Assembly (NCBI RefSeq): GCF_902388705.1
Contig: NZ_CABMQJ010000001.1
Span: 78,454 to 142,453 of the forward strand
Source: an uncultured Alistipes sp.
GTDB taxonomy: Bacteria > Bacteroidota > Bacteroidia > Bacteroidales > Rikenellaceae
DNA length: 64,000 nucleotides
Direction of reading: 5' to 3'
Shown here: positions 27,100 through 43,020 of the stretch, piece after piece
Position numbering within the stretch: position 1 is the stretch's first letter
How the letters are laid out: each line of letters opens with the position of its first letter
Program-made: the position numbers and the translations under genes
Notes under the pieces: model-generated
The model's database searches: none
Told to the model about the DNA's origin: nothing
Seen by the model: only the letters and a program-made list of their open reading frames with translations

Positions 27100-27195
27100 G
27101 AATAGTAGTGTCTTATAATCGTAATATTTATAATCACAATTATAATTTAACATAATGGTAATATTATTTCATAACTTGTAATTGGTATTGGTTCA
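27100..27195. promoter_or_regulatory. AT-rich array of short palindromes (AATTATAATT, TAATATTA) with about 11-12 bp phased ATAAT repeats upstream of the znu operon, a possible metalloregulator operator
   Basis: cttATAATcgtaatatttATAATcacaattATAATttaacATAATggtaatattatt. AATTATAATT and TAATATTA are perfect palindromes. The composition resembles AT-rich Zur-type boxes. Confidence 0.25.
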
Positions 27196-28066: not shown

Positions 28067-28331
28067 AAAATAGGTATTTCCGCTTTTTTGACGATACCGG
28101 TCTTGGGGCTGATATGCCTCGGGGAGGGAGAATCGCACCGGTTCATATCGTTCGCCGGAATCCTGCGAAATGGTCGTATTTGTTGTCTGCTGTCCGAATG
28201 CCTGCGTTCTATGCGGAATCCCGGTGGAGAATTGCCCGATGGCAGGCTGCGCTGCGTCGGATTCCTGAGTTGTCGTTGAATTTATCCCGTTGAGAATCGA
28301 ATATTTCGGACTGGCCCCCGCGCGGAATTTT

Positions 28332-28805
28332 TTAGCGCATTGTCGGCGTGAAACTTTCGAATGTCTGGTCGTCGTAAAGCACGATGATTCGTTTGACATT
28401 TGCCTTGTCCGTCAACAGAGCGGATGAGATTTGCGAAGCCGCGTCCTTGGGTGGGTGTGCCGGTTCCCTGTCGTTCGATTTTTCTCCGTCCTGGAGTTTG
28501 CCGGAGACGACTGTGCCGAAAAGGTCGGCACCGGATGCTGCTGTTTGCGATGCCGGGGATACGGCGGATGGCTGTCCGGATTGCATTGCCGACCCGTCAC
28601 GGTACATCTTATCTGAATCGAGTAGCAACCAATCCGGATTGATTCGGGGGAACCTCTTGAGAATCTTTTGGAGCATATCGAAGCCCGGTTTGTTTCGTCC
28701 GGCAAGAATATGGGAGATTCCGGCGGGATTGATTTCGAGCAGTTCTGCGAGCTGGCTCGGCTTCAATCCCTCGTTTTTCATCAAATCGAGCAATTTTTCC
28801 CTCAT
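28332..28805 (-). CDS. helix-turn-helix DNA-binding protein (XRE-like HTH, low-complexity C-terminal half)
   Basis: MREKLLDLMKNEGLKPSQLAELLEINPAGISHILAGRNKPGFDMLQKILKRFPRINPDWLLL is an HTH_3-type motif, as in a small DNA-binding protein family common in Bacteroidota. The rest is Ser/Ala/Gln-rich. Confidence 0.7.
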   Translation of the reverse strand: MREKLLDLMKNEGLKPSQLAELLEINPAGISHILAGRNKPGFDMLQKILKRFPRINPDWLLLDSDKMYRDGSAMQSGQPSAVSPASQTAASGADLFGTVVSGKLQDGEKSNDREPAHPPKDAASQISSALLTDKANVKRIIVLYDDQTFESFTPTMR

Positions 28806-28820
28806 TTGTGTAATTTTTTA

Positions 28821-28828
28821 CAAATATA
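28821..28828 (-). promoter_or_regulatory. -7 promoter element TATATTTG of the HTH gene
   Basis: The plus-strand CAAATATA is TATATTTG on the minus strand, 15 nt upstream of the ATG (28805). It is flanked by the inverted repeat TTACAAA...TTTGTAA (28818-28846). Confidence 0.4.
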
Positions 28829-28860
28829 AATATTTTTCTTTTGTAAAACAAGAAAAATCT

Positions 28861-29290
28861 ACATTTGTAAAATGTTAATAGTTGTTGAAAAAGTTTACAT
28901 CTGTAATTTAGTTAATATTGTTAAAACTTACCAGATAAGCTTTGTTGAATCTAAAGTTTATATGGATATATGTATATAACTGATTATTAATCTATAATTA
29001 CATTTAATGCGGGCTGTGGCAGTCCTTATGGCGAGTTGTCACTACCCCACGACCTATGTGCTGAAATTATTTTGTAGGTAATCGCTGTAAATAGCTGGAT
29101 TATAGTACTTCGTTTTGTATTTGTTTAATCGTTTAACCGGCTGCGGACTGTATGTGAAACGCATTTTATCCGCACTCGCTCCCTGTTTTACAAATGGATT
29201 AATTAACAGCTCTACCAACGATTGTTAATTTACATATGTAATTACAAATGGAAATACAAGGGCAGATGGATGTTTACAATTGTAAATCCA
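28861..29290. promoter_or_regulatory. cluster of TTTACA-N2-TGTAA(A/T) palindromes and TGTAA half-sites in a 660-bp AT-rich leader
   Basis: Palindromes: ACATTTGTAAAATGT (28861-28875), TTTACAtcTGTAAT (28894-28907), TTTACAtaTGTAAT (29229-29242), and TTTACAATTGTAAA (29273-29286), which is a perfect 14-mer. There are at least 12 TTTGTAA/TTACAAA half-sites in total. Confidence 0.35.
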
Positions 29291-29387
29291 CCACCCTATT
29301 AAGTAAAAATTTCAGACTTTTTCTAATATTTCGAACTGTTGACAGACTAATTTATTAACAGCCCGATATTTCCTATGTATTATGTTA

Positions 29388-29428
29388 AATAAAAAAGAAC
29401 GGATAGTGTTAATAACCCACTATCCGTT
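29388..29428 (-). terminator. rho-independent terminator of the HIT gene
   Basis: 11-bp perfect stem AACGGATAGTG/CACTATCCGTT (29399-29409 and 29418-29428) with an 8-nt loop. On the minus strand it is followed by the U-run from plus AAATAAAAAAG. Confidence 0.7.
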
Positions 29429-29464
29429 TGTAATTCAAACGATTGTATTTTTGTAAACAGCCTT

Positions 29465-29851
29465 CTATTCAGAGAGTTTCGTTGCGATTTCCCGGAACTC
29501 ATCCGGCGTTAATTTAAGCTTTTCGCGGCGGAAATCCACGTCATTTTCGCTTTGAATGGGGATTAAATGGATATGTGCATGGGGAACTTCGAGGCCTAAA
29601 ACGACCACAGCTACCCTTGCGCATGCTATTTCCTGTTTGATTTTAGCTGCTACACGTTTCGCAAAGAGCATCATGCCCGCCAGTGTCTGGTCGTCGAGAT
29701 CGAAAATGTAGTCGATTTCTTTCTTGGGGACAACCAATGTGTGCCCTTTTGTCAGCGGATTGATGTCGAGGAATGCATAGTAGTTCTCGTCTTCGGCGAT
29801 TTTATAGGACGGAATTTCGCCGGCAATGATGCGTGAGAAAATGGATGCCAT
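29465..29851 (-). CDS. HIT-family (histidine triad, Hint-like) nucleotide hydrolase
   Basis: MASIFSRIIAGEIPSYKIAEDENYYAFLDINPLTKGHTLVVPK...HAHIHLIP (HxHxHxx triad). Confidence 0.85.
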   Translation of the reverse strand: MASIFSRIIAGEIPSYKIAEDENYYAFLDINPLTKGHTLVVPKKEIDYIFDLDDQTLAGMMLFAKRVAAKIKQEIACARVAVVVLGLEVPHAHIHLIPIQSENDVDFRREKLKLTPDEFREIATKLSE

Positions 29852-29868
29852 ATTTTATCGTTTTTAAT

Positions 29869-30162
29869 TTAGTGTAAATTATTCGTAGGATGCGGGCCTG
29901 TGCTGGTCGTTGACTTTCGGCCTGCTGCAATGCGCCTGCCCTCCATGACCTGTTTGACAGCGGCGGCGCAGTTGATAATAATCGTTATCAGGAAGAGGCT
30001 GTCCGTGAACGAAAACTTCCTGTCGGGTGCCGTGAAGAGGCATATAAGCCATGCGATAGCGAGCAGGCACCAGCATCCCAGTGCGAGATAGCCTCGTTTG
30101 GCCTGTTTCTGCGCCTCCTGCCGGTGGTATTCCGCCAGCCATTGTTCTTCTTCGGGTGTCAT
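29869..30162 (-). CDS. mini membrane protein, paralog A (about 97 aa, 2 TM, N-terminus MTPEEEQW)
   Basis: ATG at 30162 in the context ttcttcgggtgtcat. MTPEEEQWLAEYHRQEAQKQAKRGYLALGCWCLLAIAWLICLF...FLITIIINCAAAVKQ... is homologous to paralog B. Confidence 0.45.
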   Translation of the reverse strand: MTPEEEQWLAEYHRQEAQKQAKRGYLALGCWCLLAIAWLICLFTAPDRKFSFTDSLFLITIIINCAAAVKQVMEGRRIAAGRKSTTSTGPHPTNNLH

Positions 30163-30973: not shown

Positions 30974-33190
30974 TCAGCTTAAGGTTCGTTTAACGCTTTC
31001 AATGCCTTTTATCTTGCGCAGCTTGTCCATGACGTCATGCAGGCCCTCGGCATCCTTCACGTAGAGGCTTATGCTGCCTTCGAAGATGCCGTCGTGGCTG
31101 TGGATGCTGACCTCGCGGATGTTGATGCTGAAATCGCCGCTTACGACTTTCGCCAGGTCGAGCAGGATGCCCATGCGGTCGATGCCGCGCAGGTCGACTG
31201 TCACCAGGTACGACATGGCCTTGTGCTGCGACCATTTGATCTCTTCCTTGACGATGTTTTTGCCGAATTGCGCCGCGAGCCTGTCCAGCTCGTCGCAGCT
31301 GGCCTTGTGTACGATGATATTGCCCGTCGCAGGGTCGCGGTAGCCTACCACCTTGTCGCCGGGAATCGGCTTGCAGCATTCGGCGATTTCGAACTGCGGT
31401 TCCGGCGGAACCTCCCCGGTCGGGGCGATTTCACCCGGAAGGGCCGTGTCGTCGCCCTCTTCCTCCTCCTTTTTGGGGATGAAGAGCGTCCAGAACTTGA
31501 GTATCTTGCTTTTGGAATTGACTTTCAACGCCTTGTCCAAATCGTCGAGCTTGATGATGCCGGCGCCGATTTTGCTGTACAGTTCCTCCTTGTTGTTGCT
31601 TTCGTAGATGGGGACGATTTTGCGCAGTACGCGGCCGCTCAATTTGATATTCAGCGACTTCATCTTCTCGTCGAGCATCTGCATACCCCGCTCGATATTG
31701 TTTTGCCGCTCGCGCTTGAGGAAACTCTTAATCGACTGCTTGGCTTTGGCCGTGGTCACGACCTCGAGCCATTCGGGCTTGGGGCGCGCATTGTCGGCCG
31801 TGATGATTTCAATCTGGTCGCCGCTGTTGATGCGCGTAGTGATCGGCTCGAGTTTGTGGTTTATTTTGGCGCTGATGGCGCTGTTGCCTATTTTCGAGTG
31901 GATGTCGTATGCGAAGTCTAACGCCGTGGCGCCGAACGGCATTTTGCGGGCTTCTCCCTTTGGTGTAAATACAACTATTTCAGATGTATATAGCGACAAC
32001 TTGAAGTTGTCCAGGAAGTCGACCGCATTTTCCGTCGGGCTGTTCAGCGCCGCGCGTATCTGTTTCAGCCACTTGTCGAATTCATCCTCGTCCTGCGAGA
32101 TGGTAGCGTGCTTGTATTTCCAGTGCGCCGCGAAACCCCGCTCGGCGATGTCCTCCATGCGCTGGGTACGGATTTGCACCTCGACCCACACGCCGTCGGG
32201 CCCCATCACGGTCGAATGCAGGGCCTCGTAGCCGTTGGCCTTGGGCATCGAAATCCAGTCGCGCAGGCGGTCGGGCTTGGGGGTGTATATGTCCGTAATC
32301 GTGGAATATACCTGCCAGCACTGCGTTTTTTCGGATGGAAACGGCAGGGGTTTGAATACGATGCGGATAGCGAACAGGTCGTAAATCTCCTCGAAAGGAA
32401 TCTGTTTGCGCTGCATCTTGCTCCATATCGAGTAGACGCTTTTGACGCGGCCCGAGATTTCGTAATTGATGTTGTCGCGGTTGAGCGAGGCGATGATCGG
32501 GGCGTTGAACTTGTTGATGAACTCCCGGCGCGAAGCCTCTGTTTCGTTGAGTTTCTGGGTGATTTCGGCGTATTGCTGCGGGAAGCGGTACTTCATGCAG
32601 AGGTCTTCCAGCTCGCTTTTAATCGAGTAGAGGCCCAGCCTGTATGCCAGCGGGGCGAACAGGTAGATTGTTTCGCCCGTGATTTTAATCTGTTTGTTCA
32701 TCGGCATCGCTCCCAGCGTGCGCATGTTGTGCAGGCGGTCGGCGATTTTGATGAGGATGACCCGCACGTCGTCCGAAAGGGTCAGCAGTACTTTGCGGAA
32801 GTATTCGGCCTGCTCCGAGGTTTCGGCATTGAAAACACCCGACATCTTCGTAAGGCCGTCGACCATCGAGGCGATTTTCGGCCCGAAGATGCGTTCCATG
32901 TCCTCCACGGTGTACTCCGTGTCCTCCACGACGTCGTGCAGCAGCGCCGCCACGACCGATTTCACACCCAGTCCGATTTCCTCGATGACAATCTTGGCTA
33001 CTGCAATAGGATGCAGGAGGTACGGCTCGCCGGAGCGGCGCCTTACCCCCTGATGGGCCTCTTTGGCCAGGAAAAAAGCACGTTTGATGAAATTCCAGTC
33101 CTCGTCGTTCTTGCATATCTTGGTGCACGAGAGGAGCAGGTCGTCCCACTTTTCCTTGATTATGATTTCATCCTCGGCAGTATAATCCAT
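30974..33190 (-). CDS. relA: bifunctional (p)ppGpp synthetase/hydrolase RelA/SpoT
   Basis: HD hydrolase domain (..LHDVVEDT..), synthetase domain (YSIWSKMQRK, ..DLFAIRIV..), then TGS and a C-terminal ACT domain. 738 aa. Confidence 0.9.
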   Translation of the reverse strand: MDYTAEDEIIIKEKWDDLLLSCTKICKNDEDWNFIKRAFFLAKEAHQGVRRRSGEPYLLHPIAVAKIVIEEIGLGVKSVVAALLHDVVEDTEYTVEDMERIFGPKIASMVDGLTKMSGVFNAETSEQAEYFRKVLLTLSDDVRVILIKIADRLHNMRTLGAMPMNKQIKITGETIYLFAPLAYRLGLYSIKSELEDLCMKYRFPQQYAEITQKLNETEASRREFINKFNAPIIASLNRDNINYEISGRVKSVYSIWSKMQRKQIPFEEIYDLFAIRIVFKPLPFPSEKTQCWQVYSTITDIYTPKPDRLRDWISMPKANGYEALHSTVMGPDGVWVEVQIRTQRMEDIAERGFAAHWKYKHATISQDEDEFDKWLKQIRAALNSPTENAVDFLDNFKLSLYTSEIVVFTPKGEARKMPFGATALDFAYDIHSKIGNSAISAKINHKLEPITTRINSGDQIEIITADNARPKPEWLEVVTTAKAKQSIKSFLKRERQNNIERGMQMLDEKMKSLNIKLSGRVLRKIVPIYESNNKEELYSKIGAGIIKLDDLDKALKVNSKSKILKFWTLFIPKKEEEEGDDTALPGEIAPTGEVPPEPQFEIAECCKPIPGDKVVGYRDPATGNIIVHKASCDELDRLAAQFGKNIVKEEIKWSQHKAMSYLVTVDLRGIDRMGILLDLAKVVSGDFSINIREVSIHSHDGIFEGSISLYVKDAEGLHDVMDKLRKIKGIESVKRTLS

Positions 33191-33193
33191 ACC

Positions 33194-34207
33194 TTATGCT
33201 TTAGGGTTCTTCATGGCCTCGCGTACCTTGGCCTCGATTTCGCTGCGGAGCTCCCCGTCGTTTTTCAGCAGTTCCTTGACCGCGTCGCGCCCCTGTCCTA
33301 TCTTCCTGTCGCCGTACGAGAACCAGGAACCGGCTTTCTTGAGTACGCCGTAGTCGACGCCCAGATCAACAATCTCGCCGATTTTCGAGATGCCTTCGCC
33401 GAACATGATGTCGAATTCCGCGCGTTTGAACGGCGGTGCCACCTTGTTTTTCACCACCTTGACCTTGGTGCGGGTGCCTAACTGGTCTTCGCCGTCCTTG
33501 ATGACCGACATGCGGCGGATGTCGATACGCACACTGGCGTAGAACTTCAGCGCATTACCGCCCGTCGTGGTTTCGGGGTTGCCGTATACGATGCCGATTT
33601 TGTCGCGCAACTGGTTGATGAAGATGCAGACCGTCTTGGTTTTCGAGATGCTCGAGGTGAGTTTGCGCAGCGCCTGCGACATCAGCCGGGCCTGCAGACC
33701 CATTTTCGAGTCGCCCATCTCGCCTTCGATTTCGGCCTTGGGCGTCAGCGCCGCTACCGAGTCGATAACGATGATGTCGATGGCGCTCGAACGAATCAGC
33801 GAGTCGGCGATTTCCAGCGCCTGCTCGCCGTTGTCGGGCTGCGAAATCAGCAGGTTGTCGACGTCTACGCCTAACTTCTGTGCGTAGAAACTGTCGAAAG
33901 CATGCTCGGCGTCGATAAACGCCGCGATGCCGCCCGCTTTCTGGGCTTCGGCGATGGCGTGGATGGCGAGGGTCGTTTTACCCGATGATTCGGGACCGTA
34001 AATTTCCACGACGCGGCCTTTGGGATAGCCGCCTACGCCGAGGGCCATGTCGAGGGTGATCGACCCTGTCGGGATAACCGGCACGTCGTTCACCTCCTGC
34101 GAGTTCATGCGCATGATCGAACCTTTGCCGAAGTCCTTTTCTATTTTTTCCATTACTGCGTTAAGCACTTTGAGCTTATCCGCGTTTACCTGTACTTTTT
34201 CTGCCAT
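33194..34207 (-). CDS. recA: recombinase RecA
   Basis: Walker [12 protein letters not shown], and the ..[19 protein letters not shown].. block. Full length at 337 aa. Confidence 0.95.
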
Positions 34208-34239
34208 TGTTTTGGTTGTTATTTTCTTTTATTTTACGC

Positions 34240-34797
34240 TTATCTGCCTTGCCGCCGCATCCTGTCGAGGGCTTTCATCTGGTCGGTGCGTTTGTCCGCC
34301 CGTGCGTCGCGCGGAACGGGGAAGCGTATCGTCCGGGCGTCCAGCGCACGATCCTGAAAAGGACTCCAGTTGTCGACCGAAGTGTTGCCGATGCTCATCC
34401 GCCAAGAGCCGACCTCTTTGTTCAGGTCGCGCTTCTGCGTGTGCCGGTGTGCTTTTATCACCGACTCCTGCGTCATGGCGCGGTGCTGCATCTCCTCTCT
34501 TATCTTGCGGCGGGCCCGCTGTATCGGGTCGACCTCCTCGCGCAGCCATTGGAGGCTGAACTCTTCGGGCGGGAGCATCCGCAGTTCGCGGGCCGCGGCA
34601 TGCGCCTTGGCCGCGAAATCAGCCGGGAATTCCTGCTGCGGTGCCGCCGGCCGTTCTGCTGCTACTCCCGCAGGGAGTTCCTGTGCGGGGTGCTTCGGAG
34701 AGCCCTGCGCCGGTTCCGCCGGGAGCTGCCTTGCATGCGACTGCAAGGTGCCGAACAGGCAGCCTGCTGCCAGTAATATGCTCCCGAACCGTTTCAT
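34240..34797 (-). CDS. hypothetical secreted protein (signal peptide, Pro/Ala-rich N-terminus, basic C-terminus)
   Basis: MKRFGSILLAAGCLFGTLQSHARQ (signal). Sits between bcp and recA on the same strand. Confidence 0.45.
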   Translation of the reverse strand: MKRFGSILLAAGCLFGTLQSHARQLPAEPAQGSPKHPAQELPAGVAAERPAAPQQEFPADFAAKAHAAARELRMLPPEEFSLQWLREEVDPIQRARRKIREEMQHRAMTQESVIKAHRHTQKRDLNKEVGSWRMSIGNTSVDNWSPFQDRALDARTIRFPVPRDARADKRTDQMKALDRMRRQGR

Positions 34798-34801
34798 TCG
34801 C

Positions 34802-35263
34802 CTATTTGTATGCGTCCAGAATCTGCTGGTAATGGTTTGCGGTGTTTACCTTCGTAAACAATTTCTCGATACGCCCCTCGGCGTCGATAACGAACGTCGT
34901 GCGCAGTACGCCCATGTATTTGCGGCCGTACATCGATTTCTCGGCCCAGACCCCGTAGGCTTCGCAGACGCTGTGGTCGGTGTCGGACAGCAGCGTGAAA
35001 TTCAGGTCGTGCTTCGCACAGAAGTTTTTGTGCGACTTTTCGCTGTCGGGGCTCACGCCGATAATGCGGAATCCCATCCGCGCTAACTCTGCCTTGCCGT
35101 CGCGCAGGCTTTTGGCCTCGAGCGTGCAGCCCGACGTGTTGTCCTTGGGATAAAAATAGAGTATCGTGCGCTGTCCTTTCAGGTCGGCAAGCGACAGGGG
35201 CTCACCGTCTTGTGTCGTGGACTTGAAATCGGGGGCCATATCCCCTACCTGCAACTGTGTCAT
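34802..35263 (-). CDS. bcp: thioredoxin-dependent peroxiredoxin Bcp
   Basis: ..GQRTILYFYPKDNTSGCTLEA.. carries the peroxidatic Cys in the P..T/SxxC motif. 153 aa. Confidence 0.9.
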   Translation of the reverse strand: MTQLQVGDMAPDFKSTTQDGEPLSLADLKGQRTILYFYPKDNTSGCTLEAKSLRDGKAELARMGFRIIGVSPDSEKSHKNFCAKHDLNFTLLSDTDHSVCEAYGVWAEKSMYGRKYMGVLRTTFVIDAEGRIEKLFTKVNTANHYQQILDAYK

Positions 35264-35417
35264 CGGTTTGCGAAAAATTGTTTTTTGTTTCCTTAAAAAT
35301 AGTACGTGCCGTGCGCCGCGCCGATTTTTCGGCGTAATGCCCGGGCAGGGCGTATTTTGTGTAAAGATATAAATTTTCCGTGGATTTCTGCGCCTCCCGC
35401 GCCCACTTTTTTGCGGC

Positions 35418-35630
35418 TCAATCCCACATGTAGGTCACCTCTATCTGTTCGTTGAACTCCTCCTTCGAGGTGTTGAGTTTTTTCAGGCATGCCGGACACC
35501 GGATCGCCGTTTCTGTTTCGACGTATTCGCCGCATCCCACGCACATCGGCAGCATGCCGTAGCCGGGCTGCATGTAGTGCTCGAACTGCGCTCCGCAGTG
35601 CTTGCACCTGATTTTGTAAGCTGTTCCCAT
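35418..35630 (-). CDS. small zinc-ribbon protein (70 aa, three CxxC pairs)
   Basis: ATG at 35630 gives MGTAYKIRCKHCGAQFEHYMQPGYGMLPMCVGCGEYVETETAIRCPACLKK... The longer track ORF from 35726 lacks support. Confidence 0.45.
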   Translation of the reverse strand: MGTAYKIRCKHCGAQFEHYMQPGYGMLPMCVGCGEYVETETAIRCPACLKKLNTSKEEFNEQIEVTYMWD

Positions 35631-35753
35631 AATTGTTTTCTTTTTAGGTTCACGATACAAAGGAACGGCTCTGTTGTGACAACTTGTGACACACAAAGAA
35701 AAAACGTATGTTTTTTCGGAAAACATACGTTTTTTTCGGGAAAGCCGGGCGGC

Positions 35754-36284
35754 CTAATGATGGTGTTCGGCCTCCATGGCCTCCTGCTGGGTCTTGTGCA
35801 CGGTGCCGTGGGGATGCTCTGCGGGGGCGTAAATCGAGTAGATTTTCAGCGGCGTGTTCCCCTTGTTGACGATGTTGTGCCATTTCCCGGCGGGAACGAA
35901 AATCGCGAAATCGTCCGAGGCTTCCCGCACGAAGTCGAGGTTGTCCTCGCTGTCGCCCATCATCACCTGTGCCGTACCCTGTTCGATGCGCAGGAACTGG
36001 TCGATGTCATGGTGCTGTTCCAGCCCGACGTCACAGCCGACGGGAATCGCCATTACCGTGACCTGCAGGTTATTGCCCGTCCAGAGCGTAGTCCTGAAAT
36101 TCTCGTTCGACAGCGTATAGTCTTCGATGTTCAGCACGGTCGGCCCGGCTCCGTAATCTTTGAATACGACCTCTCCGGTCGTTTTTGCGCCGGGCGTTTC
36201 CGGTGCCGGGGCCTGCCGGCAGCAGGAGCCGGTCGCAAGTGCCGTGCACAGCACTCCCAGCATTATTGCGGTGTTTGTTTTCAT
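35754..36284 (-). CDS. cupin-domain lipoprotein
   Basis: ATG at 36284 gives MKTNTAIMLGVLCTALATGSCC (lipobox). A cupin beta-barrel follows with ..FAIFVPAGKWHNIVNKGNTPLKIYSIYAP.. and a His-rich C-terminus EAEHHH. The 319-aa track ORF upstream extension is rejected. Confidence 0.6.
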   Translation of the reverse strand: MKTNTAIMLGVLCTALATGSCCRQAPAPETPGAKTTGEVVFKDYGAGPTVLNIEDYTLSNENFRTTLWTGNNLQVTVMAIPVGCDVGLEQHHDIDQFLRIEQGTAQVMMGDSEDNLDFVREASDDFAIFVPAGKWHNIVNKGNTPLKIYSIYAPAEHPHGTVHKTQQEAMEAEHHH

Positions 36285-36328
36285 GGTGTCGGTGTTTTGT
36301 TTTACACAAATATAATGAAAAAACCGTG

Positions 36329-37225
36329 CTAAAAAATGTTCGCGTCGATATATTCGCGGATATATTTCGCCAGTCCCGGCGAATCGACGATGCGGATGTC
36401 GTCCAGCAGTCCCACGACGAAGCGTCCCACTCCGGCGTATCCTGCGACCTCCGTGTCGAGCAGCCAGCGTCCCCGGCCCGACGGCCGGACGTCGCGCTCG
36501 GCCAGCGGATACTCCTCGCACAGCAGGTTGTAGGCCAGTAATCCCAGTTCCAATTGTACCCGGTGGCGTGTTTGTCCGTGCATGCGGAAAACGTCGATGA
36601 ATCCCTCGCAGTGCTCCTTCCCGTGCTCCCATGCGGCTTCGGTAAGTTCCACCGCTCCGATGCGCGAAGTCTTGAATAACTTGCAGGCGCCGGCTTCCGG
36701 GTCGTAACACCACACCTGCACATAGTTGGTGGTAAAGGCGAACGGCTCTACCCTGCGGTCGCGGACTTCGCCGCCGTGTGCCGACTGGTAGCTGTGCAGG
36801 ACGACCTGCCGCTGCTCGCCGATGGCCTCGATCAGCGTGCGGATGTTCGGGGCGTTCTTGCCCCTGACCACCGTGTCGGCCAGCGTTTTGTTGTCGTAGA
36901 CCGAGTAGAGTTTGCGCTTGAGGTTCTGCTTCAGCATGTTCGTGTCGTCGATGTTCTCGATGGCGCTTTTCAGGATTACGGCCTCTTCTTCGGTGAAATG
37001 TACCAGCTGCGAGATGTCGCGGAAATGCGGCGATTCCTTGTCGAGGCGGATGCAGTCGCCCGATTTTTTGATGACGAAGCCCGCCTCGCGGAACGTGTCG
37101 ATATAGCGGTATACCGTGCGGCGCGACATGTCGAGCCGTTCGGCCAGCTGGTCGATGTTGTACGTGGTATTCGCCGTCAGCAGCTTCATCAGCCGCAGCA
37201 GGCGTTCGAGTTTGGGTTGGTCCAT
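36329..37225 (-). CDS. WYL-domain transcriptional regulator (N-terminal HTH, WYL, then a C-terminal WCX-like extension)
   Basis: HTH: LERLLRLMKLLTANTTYNIDQLAERLDMSRRTVYRYIDTFREAGFVI. WYL domain region: ..VVLHSYQSAHGGEVRDRRVEPFAFTTNYVQVWCYDPEAGACKLFKTSRIG.... 298 aa. Confidence 0.75.
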   Translation of the reverse strand: MDQPKLERLLRLMKLLTANTTYNIDQLAERLDMSRRTVYRYIDTFREAGFVIKKSGDCIRLDKESPHFRDISQLVHFTEEEAVILKSAIENIDDTNMLKQNLKRKLYSVYDNKTLADTVVRGKNAPNIRTLIEAIGEQRQVVLHSYQSAHGGEVRDRRVEPFAFTTNYVQVWCYDPEAGACKLFKTSRIGAVELTEAAWEHGKEHCEGFIDVFRMHGQTRHRVQLELGLLAYNLLCEEYPLAERDVRPSGRGRWLLDTEVAGYAGVGRFVVGLLDDIRIVDSPGLAKYIREYIDANIF

Positions 37226-37229
37226 ACTG

Positions 37230-37745
37230 TTATTGTCCGTATTTTTCGAGGTATCGGCAAAGCGTTTTGTATAGTTCGTTGCGTTGGCAGCTGATTAAAT
37301 CCGGCGAGATGTTTATCGCGGATCCCGTCAGGCTGCGGTTCCATTTGGTCAGTCGCATGCGAAACCGGTTGCGTTCCTGCCTGGCCTCTTCCGGGATTTC
37401 ATACGTGACGACTGCGATAAAAGACTGGCTCTGGAGTCGGATTTCATTGAAAACCCGGATCTCGCTCCATTTCAGGTCGTATTGTTTCCCGTTTGGCTGG
37501 CGTATTGTGATTTTTTCCGGTGTGAGTATCAGGGCTTCGCTGTTGCGTGACAATTGTCGGAGAATGCCGAGTCCGTAGATGAAACAGGCTCCGAAGAAAA
37601 GGCTCCCCAGACACCCGATTATCCAGATAAGCGGATTTTGCGGCCGCAGGCGGATGAGCAGCACTCCGCATGCGACGAATGCCGGAGCGCACAGCAGCAG
37701 CAATGCTGCCATCCGCAGAACCTTGAAACGATAGATTCTTTTCAT
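37230..37745 (-). CDS. membrane protein with two N-terminal TM helices and a bacterial PH-like domain
   Basis: MKRIYRFKVLRMAALLLLCAPAFVACGVLL..IWIIGCLGSLFFGACFIYGL (2 TM) then ..ALILTPEKITIRQPNGKQYDLKWSEIRVFNE.. (YcxB/bPH_2-like). Confidence 0.45.
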   Translation of the reverse strand: MKRIYRFKVLRMAALLLLCAPAFVACGVLLIRLRPQNPLIWIIGCLGSLFFGACFIYGLGILRQLSRNSEALILTPEKITIRQPNGKQYDLKWSEIRVFNEIRLQSQSFIAVVTYEIPEEARQERNRFRMRLTKWNRSLTGSAINISPDLISCQRNELYKTLCRYLEKYGQ

Positions 37746-37857
37746 GGAGACAAAGATATAAAAAAAGCCGTGACAAAACCTGTCACGGCTCCCTGTTTGG
37801 GTATTACGGTATGCAAAGGCGCGCAGCTTTTCGGAAGATTTCCGTCTTCCGCGAAGC

Positions 37858-39270
37858 TTACTGCGCCAGTACTTTCTTTTCTATTTCTTCGACCTGGCGG
37901 CGGAATGCCTTGTCGGTTTCAATCAGGTTCGATACGGCCTTGCACGAGTGGAGTACGGTCGCGTGGTTGCGCCCTCCGATTGCCGAACCGATGGTCGTGA
38001 GCGGCGCCTTGGTGTGCTGCTTCGAGAGGTACATCGCGATTTGGCGGGCCTGCGCGATTTCCCGTGTGCGCTCGGTGGAGTTGAAGCGGGCGAAATCGAG
38101 GTTCAGGTATTCGCATACGACCTTGATGATATGGTCGATCGTGATTTCCTTCTGGTAGAGCTGGACATACACTTTGAGTATCTCCTTTGCCAGCGATGTG
38201 GTGATTTTGCGGCCGAGGAACGAAGCGTTCGCCACCAGCGACGAGAGCGCACCCTCGATTTCGCGCACGTTGGCCGAGATATTGTCGGCCAGGTAGGCCA
38301 CGACGTCGTCCGAAATCTGCGCCCCGAGTTTCTGCGCCTTGACGCGGATAATCTTGAGTTTCGTATCGTAGTCCGGCGTATTGAGCTGTGCCGAAAGTCC
38401 CCACTTGAAGCGGGTCAGCAGCCGCTGCTCGATGTCTTTCAGCTCCACGGGCGGCTTGTCCGAAGTGAGAATCAGTTGTTTGCCCGCCAGCTGCAGGTGG
38501 TTGAAGATATTGAAGAACGCGTTCTGCGTACCCGTCTTCCCGGTCAGCTCCTGAATGTCGTCGATGATCAGTACGTCGATCATCTGGTAGAAGTGGATGA
38601 AATCGGGGATTTCACCGTTCTTGTAGGCGGTCTGGAACTGTGCCTGGAACTTGTTCATCGACACGTACAGCACCTGCAGTTCGGGGTGGCGCTGGCGCAC
38701 CTCGTGGCCGATGGCCTGCACGATATGGGTTTTGCCCAGTCCCGAATCCCCGTATATATATAAGGGGTTGAACGGATTGTTGCCCGGATTCACCGCGACG
38801 GACATGCCCGCCGAGCGTGCCAGCCGGTTGCACTCGCCCTCGATGAAAGTCGCGAACGTGAGGCCCGGATTGAGCTGCGGGTCGATAATTATCTTTTTGA
38901 GTCCCGGAATAACGAAAGGATTCTTTATATTTGCCGTGTTGGTCTGCGTGTTGAAACGCGAGATGGCCGTGGTGTCGGCGTCGGCGGTAACGGGTACGAC
39001 CGGAGTGACCGAGCGGGGCACGGCATAGTGCAGCCGGGTCTGTTGCCCGTAGAGTTGCGAGATGATCGGGCGCAGGAACGGAATGTAGTTCTTCTCGATC
39101 TGGTGTACGTAACTTTCGTTGGGGACACGCAGGCGCAGGTTGGTGCCGTCGAATTCGAGCGGTACGATAGGCTGGAACCACTTCGCGAACTCCTCTTCGG
39201 AAGTCTGTGCCTTGATGCGGTCAAGGCAGTTCTGCCACATATCGCTATATGTCTGCGTGTTGTTTAACAT
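37858..39270 (-). CDS. dnaA: chromosomal replication initiator DnaA
   Basis: ATG at 39270 gives MLNNTQTYSDMWQNCLDRIKAQTSEEEFAKWF.... AAA+ Walker A GDSGLGKTH, then ..VLIIDDIQ.., and the C-terminal DNA-binding domain ..IGSAIGGRNHATVLHSCKAV... Confidence 0.92.
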   Translation of the reverse strand: MLNNTQTYSDMWQNCLDRIKAQTSEEEFAKWFQPIVPLEFDGTNLRLRVPNESYVHQIEKNYIPFLRPIISQLYGQQTRLHYAVPRSVTPVVPVTADADTTAISRFNTQTNTANIKNPFVIPGLKKIIIDPQLNPGLTFATFIEGECNRLARSAGMSVAVNPGNNPFNPLYIYGDSGLGKTHIVQAIGHEVRQRHPELQVLYVSMNKFQAQFQTAYKNGEIPDFIHFYQMIDVLIIDDIQELTGKTGTQNAFFNIFNHLQLAGKQLILTSDKPPVELKDIEQRLLTRFKWGLSAQLNTPDYDTKLKIIRVKAQKLGAQISDDVVAYLADNISANVREIEGALSSLVANASFLGRKITTSLAKEILKVYVQLYQKEITIDHIIKVVCEYLNLDFARFNSTERTREIAQARQIAMYLSKQHTKAPLTTIGSAIGGRNHATVLHSCKAVSNLIETDKAFRRQVEEIEKKVLAQ

Positions 39271-39497
39271 GATAAGGGTTGCACTGTTTTTGATGTGACA
39301 AAGTTGTGAATAATTTTGCAAAAAGATTTCCGAAAATATGTTGCAATTTCACTTTTTTTATATATAGAAAAACAACGGTTTCCGGATGGTCGATTTTAAC
39401 TCCCTGATATTGAATAATCGAAATATATTTTATATATTTGCATATAAATTTTTTGAATCATCTTATAACTAAATTATAAATAAAACTAATAAGACTT
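39271..39497. promoter_or_regulatory. AT-rich divergent intergenic region between dnaA and the phosphohexomutase gene; candidate dnaA promoter and possibly a DNA-unwinding element
   Basis: 227 bp at about 25% GC. There is one near-consensus DnaA box, TGTGAATAA (39306-39314). No clear box array. Confidence 0.3.
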
Positions 39498-42547: not shown

Positions 42548-42573
42548 CTTTTCCGGAAAAATAATTAAAAAAA

Positions 42574-42636
42574 TAGTTGTATAACTAATATTTTAGTTTT
42601 ACCTTCGTGTCAGGATAATCAACTAAATATATAGTT
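42574..42636 (+). promoter_or_regulatory. palindromic operator-like sites upstream of blaI (AACTAATATTTTAGTT at 42583-42598; AACTAAATATATAGTT at 42621-42636, abutting the ATG)
   Basis: Inverted-repeat arms AACTAA/TTAGTT. The same core appears in the palindromes at 41495-41532. Confidence 0.45.
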
Positions 42637-43020
42637 ATGGCAGAAACAGCGAAGAGCCGACCGCAGGAACTGACCCGTGCAGAACTGGAAATCATGCAGG
42701 TTTTATGGGCCAAAGGAGCCGTCGTCGTACACGATATTCTCGACGAGATGGACGAACCCAAACCGGCCTACAACACCGTTTCGACAATTGTCCGCATTCT
42801 CGAAAAGAAAGGTTTCGTGTCGCACAAGGCCTATGGCAAGACCCACGAATATTACCCCCTTATCTCGAAAGACGACTATGCGCGCCGTTATATGGATACC
42901 GTGCTGAACAACTTCTTCGGCGGTTCCGTGAGCCGGCTGGTGTCGTTCTTCTCCGAAAACAAGGCGATTTCGCTGGAGGAAACCGATGCTATCCTGGACA
43001 TGCTCAAAAAACGCAAGTGA
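42637..43020 (+). CDS. blaI: BlaI/MecI/CopY-family transcriptional repressor
   Basis: MAETAKSRPQELTRAELEIMQVLWAKGAVVVHDILDEMDEPKPAYNTVSTIVRILEKKGFV is a winged helix of the penicillinase-repressor family. 127 aa. Confidence 0.85.
   Translation: MAETAKSRPQELTRAELEIMQVLWAKGAVVVHDILDEMDEPKPAYNTVSTIVRILEKKGFVSHKAYGKTHEYYPLISKDDYARRYMDTVLNNFFGGSVSRLVSFFSENKAISLEETDAILDMLKKRK

What the first reader, a model, noticed from the sequence alone, without database searches (positions are those of the whole stretch)
28806..29464. 660-bp AT-rich leader full of TTTACA-N2-TGTAAA palindromes upstream of an XRE-type HTH gene
Between the HIT gene terminator and the HTH gene start the GC content drops to about 35%, against about 60% locally. 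The region contains three palindromes of the form TTTACA-NN-TGTAA(A/T): 28894-28907, 29229-29242, and 29273-29286, which is a perfect 14-mer TTTACAATTGTAAA. There is also ACATTTGTAAAATGT (28861-28875) and an inverted repeat TTACAAA...TTTGTAA bracketing a consensus -7 box TATATTTG (28821-28828). At least 12 TGTAAA/TTTACA half-sites occur in total. This looks like a multi-operator region for a dimeric DNA-binding protein, possibly the adjacent HTH protein autoregulating. It could also be a replication- or partition-type iteron-like region, or the host of a small RNA, given the GC-richer core at 29005-29200.
Basis: seen in the sequence. Interest (0 to 1): 0.55.

Follow-up and report, generated by a model that had tools for sequence, protein, structure and literature searches.

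The report
Conserved operator array upstream of repressor
The AT-rich 660-bp spacer is a deeply conserved array of about seven palindromic protein-binding sites in front of an XRE-type regulator gene of Alistipes, most likely the regulator's own operators, and the same palindrome recurs in small single-stranded-DNA prophages that integrate at a dif-like site 1.2 kb beyond the gene.

Summary
The spacer 28806-29464 has 30% G+C against 57% for the window. It holds 3 exact TTACAnnTGTAA palindromes (0.004 expected) and 6 with at most one mismatch (0.14 expected). There are none elsewhere in the 64 kb.

Comparison with more than 100 related loci shows the sites are functional. Spacer length (650-668 bp) and site positions (-478, -434, -392, -101, -68, -24 from the ATG) are kept across Alistipes and relatives. 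Half-sites are conserved, the central NN is not, and the intervening DNA has diverged.

The proximal site overlaps the gene's -7 promoter box, which lies 15 nt from the ATG, so the spacer is upstream control DNA and not a leader.

The same motif sits upstream of homologous regulator genes in other Bacteroidota that have unrelated neighbours.

Nothing supports a replication origin, a known or structured RNA, or a conserved ORF.

Best reading: a distal plus proximal operator array for the adjacent XRE protein, giving autorepression and possibly a loop. Binding is inferred, not shown. A BlaI/CopY-type binder is not excluded.

Unexpected: a dif-like site at 27145-27174 is a microvirus integration hot spot, a lone XerD-type arm lies inside the spacer, and the prophages carry the same palindrome about 100-fold above chance.

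The parts
29465..29851 (-). HIT-family (HinT-like) gene, upstream neighbour
   Evidence: Pfam HIT E=2e-21. It is syntenic in all Rikenellaceae-like loci.
29391..29428 (-). Intrinsic terminator of the HIT gene: 11-bp stem, 9-nt loop, T-run
   Evidence: Read from the sequence. The stem sequence differs between species while the pairing is kept (alignment).
29379..29390 (-). Block 1: ATTTAACATAAT, a lone XerD-type dif arm. It is an exact reverse complement of the E. coli dif XerD arm TTATGTTAAAT. No second arm follows.
   Evidence: The exact 11-mer occurs only here and at 27145 in the window. It sits at -582 to -587 from the ATG in nearly all Rikenellaceae-like loci, and the sequence after it is not conserved.
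29291..29297 (-). Conserved block AGGGTAG (AGGGTGG in this genome), 5-8 bp upstream of site A
   Evidence: At least 75% conserved in 39 lineages. Also present in L104. Function unknown.
29274..29285 (.). Operator site A, TTACAATTGTAA (distal cluster)
   Evidence: Perfect in 30 of 39 lineages. Half-sites 1.85 bits per column; centre 0.90 bits (AA 18, TT 14, AT 5).
29242..29253 (.). Operator site B, TTCCATTTGTAA. It is imperfect, is conserved as imperfect, and abuts site C.
   Evidence: One mismatch in 18 of 39 lineages. The B/C pair resembles the tandem pairs in microvirus prophages (32 bp at 87.5% identity to L124).
29230..29241 (.). Operator site C, TTACATATGTAA
   Evidence: 0-1 mismatch in 32 of 39 lineages. 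Half-sites 1.51 bits.
29188..29199 (.). Operator site D. Degenerate in this genome (ATCCATTTGTAA); TTACAnnTGTAA in relatives. Preceded by the conserved block CTGTTAAT at 29201-29208.
   Evidence: 0-1 mismatch in 18 of 39 lineages.
29122..29137 (-). Conserved block GTTAAAcgATTAAACA inside the otherwise diverged 293-bp spacer between the two clusters
   Evidence: It belongs to a second over-represented word, TTAACA/TGTTAA (4.2 copies against 1.0 expected). Function unknown.
28914..28926 (-). Conserved block TTTTAAC(C)ATATT upstream of site E
   Evidence: At least 90% conserved. Function unknown.
28895..28906 (.). Operator site E, TTACAGATGTAA (proximal cluster, -101)
   Evidence: Perfect in 30 of 39 lineages. 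Half-sites 1.86 bits; centre 0.59 bits (AT 12, CT 12, GA 5, and others).
28859..28870 (.). Operator site F, TTACAAATGTAG (-68). On the + strand it reads as a -7-like box, TACATTTG.
   Evidence: One mismatch in 27 of 39 lineages. The -7-like reading on the opposite strand is kept in 11 of 14 species, but its -33 spacing is only 16 nt (sequence).
28818..28853 (-). Promoter of the HTH gene, with operator site P over the -7 box.
- -33 cTTG at 28849-28852.
- Half-site TTTACA at 28842-28847.
- -7 box TATATTTG at 28821-28828.
- Operator site P, TTATATTTGTAA, at 28818-28829.
   Evidence: Nearly invariant in 39 lineages. The Bacteroidetes promoter consensus (-33 TTTG, -7 TAnnTTTG) comes from established knowledge (Bayley et al. 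2000). In distant lineages the same position holds a perfect TTACATTTGTAA.
28332..28805 (-). XRE-type regulator gene (157 aa).
- HTH domain, residues 1-70.
- Disordered linker with a [DG]LF motif.
- C-terminal beta-hairpin, RIIVLYDDQTFESF.
   Evidence: Pfam HTH_3 E=4e-8. AlphaFold model. The family has 5928 cluster representatives. Linker motif.
27145..27174 (+). Full dif-like site ATTTAACATAAT-GGTAAT-ATTATTTCATAA, an integration hot spot for microviruses and other elements
   Evidence: L008 homology to the window ends at 27142 and microvirus genes follow. L007 carries a 2.2-kb insert at the same point.

Best explanation
The 660-bp spacer is the cis-regulatory region of the XRE-type gene at 28332-28805. 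It is not a transcribed leader.

It holds about seven 12-bp palindromic operators (consensus TTACA-NN-TGTAA, often TTTACAnnTGTAAA) in two clusters.
- The proximal cluster has sites E, F and P, at -101, -68 and -24 from the ATG. Site P lies over the -7 promoter box.
- The distal cluster has sites A, B, C and D, at -478 to -392.

The most likely binder is a dimer of the adjacent XRE protein itself. Occupancy of site P would exclude RNA polymerase and give negative autoregulation. The other sites would add cooperativity. The distal and proximal clusters may be bridged by a DNA loop of about 290-450 bp.

Shown: the sites, their enrichment, their positional conservation, and their link to this gene family.
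Inferred: which protein binds, the repression, and the looping.
For: - Enrichment is far beyond chance and is specific to this spacer.
- The HIT-HTH spacer is 650-668 bp in 13 other Alistipes species whose HTH proteins are only 45-63% identical. The palindromes sit at the same offsets.
- In 39 non-redundant lineages the half-sites carry 1.5-1.9 bits per column. The central NN carries 0.6-0.9 bits and the background 0.68 bits. This is the footprint of a symmetric dimer.
- At sites A and E the centre flips between AA, TT, AT and CT, so these sites are not directional -7 boxes.
- TGTAAA/TTTACA is the most over-represented hexamer: 8.6 copies against 1.0 expected.
- Perfect sites occur at 3.1 per kb in HTH upstream regions, against 0.03 per kb in the other 520 kb of fetched loci.
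- The motif follows the gene family. Homologues with other neighbours (SDF symporter with pyrK/pyrD; several unidentified) still carry sites at about -27 (on the -7 box), -50, -74 to -100 and -370 to -416. More distant queA/pyrD-linked homologues keep at most 1-mismatch sites. All of these homologues have long AT-rich upstream spacers of 0.54-1.67 kb.
- The residues of the recognition helix (ISHxLxGRNKP) are invariant across the family, which matches the invariant half-site.
- Twenty-one ordinary promoter boxes in the window do not resemble the palindrome.
- The one clade that lost the palindromes (L030, L105, L106) also has a changed residue next to the recognition helix (APN instead of PSG/PAG) and a shortened spacer.
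Against: - No binding data exist. Nothing here shows which protein occupies the sites.
- The core TACAnnTGTA, and even the 16-bp form RNYKACANNTGTMRNY, is the published operator of BlaI/MecI/CopY winged-helix repressors (PMC7253601). The genome encodes that family (42637-43020).
- The covariation argument rests on one clade. Another variant (GASNISH, L064 type) keeps the sites.
- Very distant homologues (L108, L110) keep the long spacer but few or no palindromes.
- Centre-to-centre distances are only partly integral in helical turns: A-B 3.05, C-D 4.0, D-E 27.9, F-P 3.9, but E-F 3.4 and E-P 7.3. Looping is therefore weakly supported.
- The near absence of indels across 300 bp of diverged spacer, and the other conserved blocks (AGGGTAG, TTAAC(C)AT words, the XerD-type arm), are not explained by simple autoregulation.
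Confidence: 0.6

Rival explanations
1. The palindromes are operators, but for a different regulator: a BlaI/MecI/CopY-type winged-helix repressor or another global factor. The XRE gene would be one of its targets.
For: - TACAnnTGTA is the known operator core of that family. Sites A, C and E also fit the extended consensus RNYKACANNTGTMRNY (PMC7253601; sequence).
- A Penicillinase_R repressor and a BlaR1-like sensor are encoded at 42637-45251.
- The same palindrome occurs in phage contigs that encode no homologue of the XRE protein.
Against: - The BlaI gene in the window has different palindromes upstream (TAGTT..AACTA) and no TACAnnTGTA.
- In 64 kb plus 520 kb of related loci the sites are almost confined to the XRE gene's upstream region and the adjacent prophages.
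- The motif stays with the XRE family when every neighbouring gene changes. Autoregulation explains that more simply.
Confidence: 0.15
2. The region is a chromosomal replication origin or another iteron-type replication or partition element.
For: - It is a long AT-rich spacer of conserved length with repeated, phased sites.
- dnaA lies 9 kb away (37858-39321).
- A DnaA-box-like 9-mer lies at -86 in many relatives. It is perfect (TTATCCACA) in L017 and L022.
Against: - Cumulative GC and AT skews rise or fall monotonically across the whole window, with no turning point at 29 kb.
- This genome has only one 1-mismatch DnaA box in the spacer, and it is not conserved. Relatives have at most two.
- Bacteroidetes origins carry clusters of canonical boxes and lie far from dnaA (PMC4755523).
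- In other lineages the module sits next to unrelated genes and always accompanies the HTH gene.
Confidence: 0.03
3. The spacer encodes a small RNA, a long structured 5' leader, or a small protein. The palindromes would be by-products of RNA structure or of promoters.
For: - Site F reads as a -7-like box on the opposite strand in 11 of 14 species.
- The HIT terminator could stop transcripts from both directions.
- The conserved spacer length is unexplained.
Against: - There is no Rfam match at gathering thresholds, and only chance-level matches (E at least 0.7) otherwise.
- RNAalifold finds only pairings between motif copies, and the covariation term is unfavourable.
- The folding z-score is +0.3 on both strands.
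- No ORF is conserved.
- The GC-richer core is the least conserved part.
- The gene's conserved promoter lies 15 nt from the ATG.
Confidence: 0.05
4. The module is a fixed remnant of an element that once integrated at dif by Xer recombination. The lone XerD-type arm at 29379-29390 would be the old attachment site and the XRE protein the element's repressor. The sites serve element control rather than host gene regulation.
For: - A lone XerD-type arm bounds the module at -585 in all Rikenellaceae-like lineages. A full dif-like site lies 0.6-2.6 kb beyond the gene.
- The protein is phage-repressor-like: a weak RstR match (E=6e-5, below the cutoff), PHROG repressor families, and the P2 C protein among the nearest solved structures.
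- Microvirus prophages at the same locus carry the same palindrome.
Against: - The gene family with its palindromes and long spacer is found across Bacteroidota with no dif-like arm nearby (L061, L071, L093, L108-L110).
- The two arms are in inverted orientation in most lineages, unlike the direct repeats left by integration.
- There is no extended similarity between the spacer and prophage DNA beyond the motif.
Confidence: 0.1

Closest known systems
Autoregulated Cro/CI-type (XRE, HTH_3) repressors with multiple operators, e.g. lambda CI at OR/OL and CTXphi RstR at ig-2
   Same: - An N-terminal five-helix HTH of the XRE class.
- Short palindromic operators with conserved half-sites.
- One operator over the gene's own promoter.
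- Several further operators, some far upstream, that could act cooperatively or by looping.
- Weak sequence similarity to phage repressors.
   Different: - It is a conserved chromosomal gene of a large Bacteroidota family (5928 cluster representatives), not a prophage gene.
- There is no divergent lytic promoter or partner gene.
- The control region is unusually long (0.5-1.7 kb) and its length is fixed.
- The C-terminal part is a disordered linker plus a 13-residue beta-hairpin, not a CI-type or peptidase domain.
- No binding has been shown.
BlaI/MecI/CopY operators (TACAnnTGTA; RNYKACANNTGTMRNY)
   Same: The sequence of the sites fits both the 10-bp core and the 16-bp consensus (PMC7253601).
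   Different: - The sites are not in front of a blaI-blaR1, mec or cop operon. The BlaI operon in this window lacks them.
- Seven sites spread over 470 bp is not the one or two dyads typical of that family.
dif/Xer sites and elements that integrate by Xer recombination; Bacteroidetes microvirus proviruses (Krupovic and Forterre 2011, PMC3091885)
   Same: - 27145-27174 is a 12-6-12 quasi-palindrome with a perfect XerD-type arm.
- Integrase-less microviruses insert exactly there.
- The spacer holds a second copy of the arm.
   Different: - The spacer copy has no second arm.
- Neither site lies at a GC-skew turning point.
- A regulator gene with its own operator array between two such arms has not been described, to my knowledge.
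Terminator-protein loci (E. coli tus/TerB, B. subtilis rtp/IR-I) (own knowledge)
   Same: A DNA-binding protein gene lies next to an array of its presumed sites, one over its promoter, close to a dif-like site.
   Different: - There is no skew turning point, so no evidence that this is the terminus.
- The sites are symmetric, whereas Ter sites are polar.
- The module occurs away from dif-like sites in other lineages.

Membership tests
XRE/Cro-CI-type autoregulated repressor locus | Protein has an HTH_3 (XRE) DNA-binding domain | tested here: met
   Pfam PF01381 E=4.1e-8, above the curated cutoff. The AlphaFold model gives five helices over residues 1-62 with pLDDT about 88.
XRE/Cro-CI-type autoregulated repressor locus | Palindromic operators with conserved half-sites, at least one overlapping the gene's own promoter | tested here: met
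   Seven sites. Half-sites carry 1.5-1.9 bits against 0.6-0.9 bits for the centre. Site P lies on the -7 box, and distant lineages have a perfect palindrome there.
XRE/Cro-CI-type autoregulated repressor locus | The encoded protein binds those operators | not testable with these tools
   Only indirect evidence: the motif and the gene family are inherited together, and the recognition helix is invariant.
XRE/Cro-CI-type autoregulated repressor locus | Oligomerisation module that allows cooperative binding or looping | tested here: inconclusive
   A confidently predicted C-terminal beta-hairpin (residues 140-152, pLDDT about 92) follows a 60-residue disordered linker. The monomer model says nothing about oligomers.
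BlaI/MecI/CopY operator | Core KACAnnTGTA and extended RNYKACANNTGTMRNY | tested here: met
   Sites A, C and E fit both forms (sequence; PMC7253601).
BlaI/MecI/CopY operator | Located at the promoter of the repressor's own operon (blaI-blaR1, mecI-mecR1, copY) | tested here: not met
   The Penicillinase_R/BlaR1 pair at 42637-45251 has no TACAnnTGTA upstream. All four copies in the window are in the XRE spacer.
Chromosomal replication origin (oriC) | Cluster of DnaA boxes | tested here: not met
   One non-conserved 1-mismatch box in the spacer. There are 15 such boxes scattered over 64 kb. Relatives have at most two.
Chromosomal replication origin (oriC) | Turning point of cumulative GC skew | tested here: not met
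   The cumulative GC skew rises and the AT skew falls monotonically through 1-64000. The replication component of the GC3 skew has the same sign on both sides.
Rfam RNA families / structured sRNA | Match to a covariance model, or conserved structure with covariation | tested here: not met
   No gathering-level match in the window. The best E-value is 0.7. RNAalifold gives a covariation term of +0.9. Folding z-scores are +0.3.
dif/Xer recombination site (for block 1, 29379-29390) | XerD-type arm | tested here: met
   ATTTAACATAA is the exact reverse complement of the E. coli XerD arm (own knowledge of dif). It is invariant in relatives.
dif/Xer recombination site (for block 1, 29379-29390) | Second arm in inverted orientation after a 6-8 bp centre | tested here: not met
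   The sequence after the arm is not conserved and shows no dyad. The site at 27145-27174 does have a second arm.
dif/Xer recombination site (for 27145-27174) | Used as an attachment site by integrase-less elements; located at the terminus skew shift | tested here: inconclusive
   Use by microviruses and other inserts is shown. There is no skew shift at 27 kb, so it may not be the chromosome dimer-resolution site.

The most novel reading that the evidence does not exclude
The chromosomal XRE protein may be a host-encoded repressor that temperate Bacteroidetes microviruses depend on. These phages encode neither an integrase nor a repressor.

They integrate by host Xer recombination at the dif-like site 1.2 kb beyond the gene. 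Their control regions carry the same TTACAnnTGTAA operators. These occur as tandem pairs 13 bp apart, about 45 to 420 bp from their dif-like arm, and as -7 boxes embedded in perfect palindromes.

The host protein would silence the prophage and perhaps modulate Xer recombination through the lone XerD-type arm in its own control region. Its long, fixed-length operator array would set the repressor level that decides between lysogeny and induction.
Probability: 0.2. Interest if true: 0.85.

Novelty: new member of a known kind. Interest (0 to 1): 0.6.

Why it matters
No transcription factor of this large Bacteroidota family (thousands of sequence clusters, present in common human-gut Alistipes) has a known operator or function. 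The comparison gives three concrete things to test.
- A consensus site.
- A map of seven sites.
- A clear prediction of autorepression at a -7 box.

The module is one of the more strongly constrained non-coding regions seen in these genomes. Its length is fixed over roughly family-level divergence.

If the link to the neighbouring dif-like site holds, it would explain how integrase-less and repressor-less microviruses keep lysogeny in Bacteroidetes. That question has been open since these proviruses were found in 2011. It would also give a handle on prophage induction in gut Alistipes.

Tried and rejected
- **Known RNA or tRNA.** Rfam over the whole window at gathering thresholds, a permissive scan of 28200-30000, and a tRNA/tmRNA scan found nothing.
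- **Structured RNA.** RNAalifold on 14 species and single-sequence folding of the core on both strands gave no support.
- **Small protein.** No ORF of 25 aa or more is conserved in position or sequence among 14 species.
- **oriC.** I tested DnaA boxes, GC/AT skew, GC3 skew by gene strand, and the literature on Bacteroidetes origins. The idea is rejected.
- **Sigma-70-type promoter and terminator scan.** Counts were at chance level. The tool does not model Bacteroidetes promoters.
- **Palindromes as ordinary -7 boxes.** Rejected. The centre NN at sites A and E is usually not TT, and 21 host promoter boxes look different.
- **The BlaI paralogue in the window as binder.** Its own upstream region lacks the motif. 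Other paralogues could not be examined.
- **Terminus / Ter-protein analogy.** There is no skew shift.
- **Extended homology between the spacer and prophage DNA.** Only motif-length matches were found.
- **HTH homologues encoded next to the tandem sites in large phage contigs.** None were found.
- **Named families for the protein.** NCBIfam, PADLOC, PHROGs and PDB sequence searches gave only generic XRE or phage-repressor hits.
- **The extra 1.1-1.4 kb between HIT and the module in the L064/L070 lineage.** It has no RNA family, no credible ORF, and only a 78-bp tandem repeat.
- **Genome-wide motif census.** Not possible.
Full report
**1. What is there**

- The window comes from an Alistipes species. 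Close relatives of its proteins are Alistipes genomes and MAGs.
- The finding lies between two minus-strand genes: a HIT-family gene (29465-29851) and an XRE-type HTH_3 gene (28332-28805).
- The 659-bp spacer has 30% G+C against 57% for the window.
- There are 10 exact TGTAAA/TTTACA hexamers, not at least 12.

**2. More than chance**

- In 5000 dinucleotide-preserving shuffles of the spacer, the expected numbers are 1.6 hexamer half-sites, 0.004 exact TTACAnnTGTAA, and 0.14 sites with at most one mismatch.
- The observed numbers are 10, 3 and 6. No shuffle reached them.
- About thirty other AT-rich stretches in the window contain no palindrome, even with one mismatch allowed.
- TACAnnTGTA occurs four times in 64 kb, all in this spacer.

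**3. Not a leader, RNA, ORF or origin**

Not a leader:
- On the minus strand the sequence just before the ATG reads cTTG-N20-TATATTTG-N15-ATG.
- This fits the Bacteroidetes promoter consensus (-33 TTTG, -7 TAnnTTTG; established knowledge, Bayley et al. 2000).
- It is almost invariant in 39 lineages.
- The transcript therefore starts about 8-10 nt before the ATG, and the spacer is upstream DNA.

Not a known or structured RNA, and no conserved ORF:
- Rfam finds nothing at gathering level, and only chance-level matches otherwise.
- There are no tRNA or tmRNA genes.
- RNAalifold on 14 species pairs only copies of the motif with one another, and the covariation term is unfavourable.
- The GC-richer core folds no better than shuffles on either strand (z = +0.3).
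- The core is the least conserved part of the spacer.
- No ORF is conserved.

Not an origin:
- dnaA lies 9 kb away (37858-39321), with recA and relA/spoT between.
- The cumulative GC skew rises and the AT skew falls monotonically through the whole window.
- There is no DnaA-box cluster.
- In Bacteroidetes, origins carry canonical boxes and usually lie far from dnaA (PMC4755523).

**4. Comparative evidence**

Spacer length and site positions:
- Ten contigs of the same species and twelve other Alistipes species have the same HIT-spacer-HTH order. Their HTH proteins are 45-63% identical to the window's.
- The spacer is 650-668 bp in all of them.
- The palindromes sit at the same offsets while the central dinucleotide changes.

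Information content, using eighty metagenomic loci reduced to 39 non-redundant Rikenellaceae-like spacers:
- Sites A and E are perfect in 30 of 39 spacers.
- Half-sites carry 1.85 bits per column. The centre carries 0.6-0.9 bits, no more than the background of 0.68 bits.
- This pattern is expected for a symmetric dimer that does not read the centre.
- It also rules out the idea that sites A and E are -7 boxes, which need TT at those two positions.

The seven sites in the window:

| Site | Coordinates | Note |
|---|---|---|
| A | 29274-29285 | distal cluster |
| B | 29242-29253 | distal cluster, abuts C |
| C | 29230-29241 | distal cluster |
| D | 29188-29199 | distal cluster, degenerate in this genome |
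| E | 28895-28906 | proximal cluster |
| F | 28859-28870 | proximal cluster |
| P | 28818-28829 | TTATATTTGTAA, overlaps the -7 box |

Other comparative facts:
- TGTAAA/TTTACA is the most over-represented hexamer in these spacers (8.6 copies against 1.0 expected).
- Other conserved blocks exist whose role I cannot assign: AGGGTAG before site A, and several TTAAC(C)AT words.

**5. The module belongs to the gene family, not to the neighbourhood**

- The protein family is large: 5928 cluster representatives at E at most 0.001.
- Its architecture is constant: an HTH of about 70 residues, a disordered linker, and a C-terminal motif RIxVLYxDxTFExFxP.
- AlphaFold models that motif as a confident beta-hairpin.
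- Homologues with other neighbours (SDF symporter with pyrK/pyrD in L061; several unidentified) still have TTACAnnTGTAA at about -27 (a perfect palindrome that contains the -7 box), at -50, at -74 to -100, and in a distal pair at -370 and -416.
- More distant queA/pyrD-linked homologues keep at most 1-mismatch sites, or none beyond the -7 box.
- All these lineages have long AT-rich upstream spacers of 544-1665 bp.
- Across all fetched loci, perfect sites occur at 3.1 per kb in the 700 bp upstream of the HTH gene. Elsewhere the rate is 0.03 per kb.
- The recognition-helix residues are invariant.
- One clade (L030, L105, L106) lacks the palindromes, has a shortened spacer, and has a changed residue next to the helix. 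This is weak covariation evidence, because another variant keeps its sites.

**6. Mechanism proposed**

- Dimers of the XRE protein bind the sites.
- Occupancy of site P blocks RNA polymerase, giving autorepression.
- Sites E and F and the distal cluster raise local concentration and cooperativity.
- A loop between the clusters is possible: D to E is 293 bp, or 27.9 turns.
- The phasing is only partly integral, so looping remains conjecture.
- The strict length conservation of a diverged spacer suggests a higher-order complex, but I cannot say which.

**7. Rival binder**

- TACAnnTGTA is the operator core of BlaI/MecI/CopY repressors. Sites A, C and E also fit the 16-bp consensus (PMC7253601).
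- The window encodes a Penicillinase_R repressor with a BlaR1-like partner.
- Its own upstream region has other palindromes (TAGTT..AACTA) and none of these sites.
- Other paralogues could not be checked.
- I keep this rival at 0.15.

**8. Unexpected finding: a dif-like site and microviruses**

The two Xer-type sequences:
- The most conserved block outside the promoter is ATTTAACATAAT at 29379-29390, directly after the HIT terminator. It is the exact reverse complement of the XerD arm of E. coli dif (own knowledge).
- The only other copy in the window is at 27145.
- There it forms a 12-6-12 quasi-palindrome, ATTTAACATAAT-GGTAAT-ATTATTTCATAA.
- That full site is conserved 0.6-2.6 kb beyond the HTH gene in nearly all Rikenellaceae-like loci. 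It lies in either orientation.
- The copy inside the spacer is always a lone arm at about -585.

The full site is an insertion hot spot:
- In L008 (same species) homology to the window ends at 27142 and microvirus genes follow.
- L007 carries a 2.2-kb insert at the same point.
- A scan of IMG/VR for the full site returned 24 contigs. At least 13 of them are microvirus-size prophages that abut the HTH, thioesterase, Rce1 or ZnuA genes of Alistipes-like hosts.
- This matches the report that Bacteroidetes microvirus proviruses lack an integrase and sit at dif-like sequences (PMC3091885).
- There is no skew shift at 27 kb, so this may not be the dimer-resolution site at the terminus.

**9. The prophages carry the same palindrome**

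- The prophage interiors were found through the dif-like site, not through the palindrome. They hold 15 perfect TTACAnnTGTAA against 0.15 expected, and 28 against 3.2 with one mismatch allowed.
- Counting related phages once still leaves about 13 perfect sites in 12 prophages.
- Some sites are -7 boxes in front of phage ORFs, embedded in a perfect palindrome (L120 position 4001).
- Others are tandem pairs 13 bp apart near the dif-like arm (L123, L124, L120). They resemble the abutting B/C pair of the host spacer (32 bp at 87.5% identity).
- Only 11 of 2.9 million viral contigs contain the tandem pattern. Seven of these are of microvirus size.
- Ordinary host promoters do not look like this.
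- No homologue of the XRE protein is encoded in these phage contigs.
- The most novel reading is that the host XRE protein represses these repressor-less prophages. This is a lead and has not been demonstrated. The same data would fit any host factor that binds the palindrome.

**10. Verdict**

- The thing is an uncharacterised member of a known kind: an autoregulated XRE repressor with a multi-operator control region.
- It is unusual in three ways: its length, its depth of conservation, and its tie to a dif-like microvirus integration site.

Noticed in passing
window 27145-27174 (+); L008 5640-5670; L007 5654-7876: A full dif-like site, ATTTAACATAAT-GGTAAT-ATTATTTCATAA, lies between the thioesterase and Rce1 genes. 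A microvirus prophage (L008) and a 2.2-kb four-ORF element without family matches (L007) are inserted exactly there in strains of the same species. The site is conserved beyond the HTH gene across Rikenellaceae-like loci, in either orientation. No GC-skew shift occurs at it.
   Followed up: yes
L120 3806-4012 and 9332-9356; L123 5540-5564; L124 5657-5681; L130 1346 and 6935; L138 1050-1090: Microvirus prophages and contigs with dif-like arms carry TTACAnnTGTAA palindromes about 100-fold above expectation. They often occur as tandem pairs 13 bp apart (a triple in L138), or as -7 boxes embedded in a perfect palindrome in front of phage ORFs.
   Followed up: partly
window 28332-28805 (-), residues about 90-100; family members P0001-P0367: The disordered linker of the XRE family holds a conserved short motif, [GN][DG]LF. 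It is present in 186 of 208 full-length members against about 8% expected. This suggests a docking site for an unknown partner.
   Followed up: partly
window 33194-39497: dnaA (37858-39321), a WYL-domain regulator, recA (33194-34207) and relA/spoT (30974-33190) all lie on the minus strand within 10 kb of the finding. The dnaA upstream spacer is only 176 bp, has no DnaA-box cluster, and shows no skew switch. dnaA is therefore probably far from the origin, as reported for Bacteroidetes.
   Followed up: partly
window 42560-45251: A BlaI-type repressor (42637-43020) and a BlaR1-M56/ExbD-like sensor (43017-45251) lie here. Their promoter region carries its own palindromes, TAGTTGTATAACTA and AACTAAATATATAGTT, which may be that repressor's operators.
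   Followed up: no
L061, L108, L109, L110: Outside Rikenellaceae the homologous HTH gene is followed by pyrD (with pyrK in L061). It is preceded by a long AT-rich spacer of 544-1665 bp, and queA is often divergent from it. The gap to pyrD is as short as 27-46 bp, which suggests co-transcription.
   Followed up: partly
L064, L065, L068, L070, L072, L073, L075-L078, L081 (e.g. L070 990-2417): In one lineage 1.1-1.4 kb of G+C-rich DNA lies between HIT and the lone XerD-type arm. It has no credible ORF, no RNA-family match, a 78-bp tandem repeat and a CA-rich microsatellite. The module itself keeps its length.
   Followed up: partly
L017 and L022 at -86 from the ATG; window 28882-28890: A DnaA-box-like 9-mer sits at a fixed place between sites E and F in many relatives. 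It reads TTATC[ACG]ACA, and is a perfect TTATCCACA in two species. It is degenerate in this genome (TTTTCAACA). A second copy lies at about -609 in other lineages.
   Followed up: partly
L030 1217-1664; L106 2210-2500; L105 1-152: One clade with the same RelA-HIT-HTH-ZnuA order has lost the palindromes. Its spacer is shortened to 291-445 bp, and its protein has APN instead of PSG/PAG before the recognition helix. Dif-arm-like sequences remain beyond the gene.
   Followed up: partly
L061, L071, L093 around 2395-2520: A short ORF with a conserved start, MKIIKxxLxKxCFKLCFQ, lies at the far end of the long spacer in the SDF/pyrD-linked lineage. Its length varies from 19 to more than 37 aa. It may be a small peptide gene, or just a conserved promoter region of the divergent symporter gene.
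   Followed up: no
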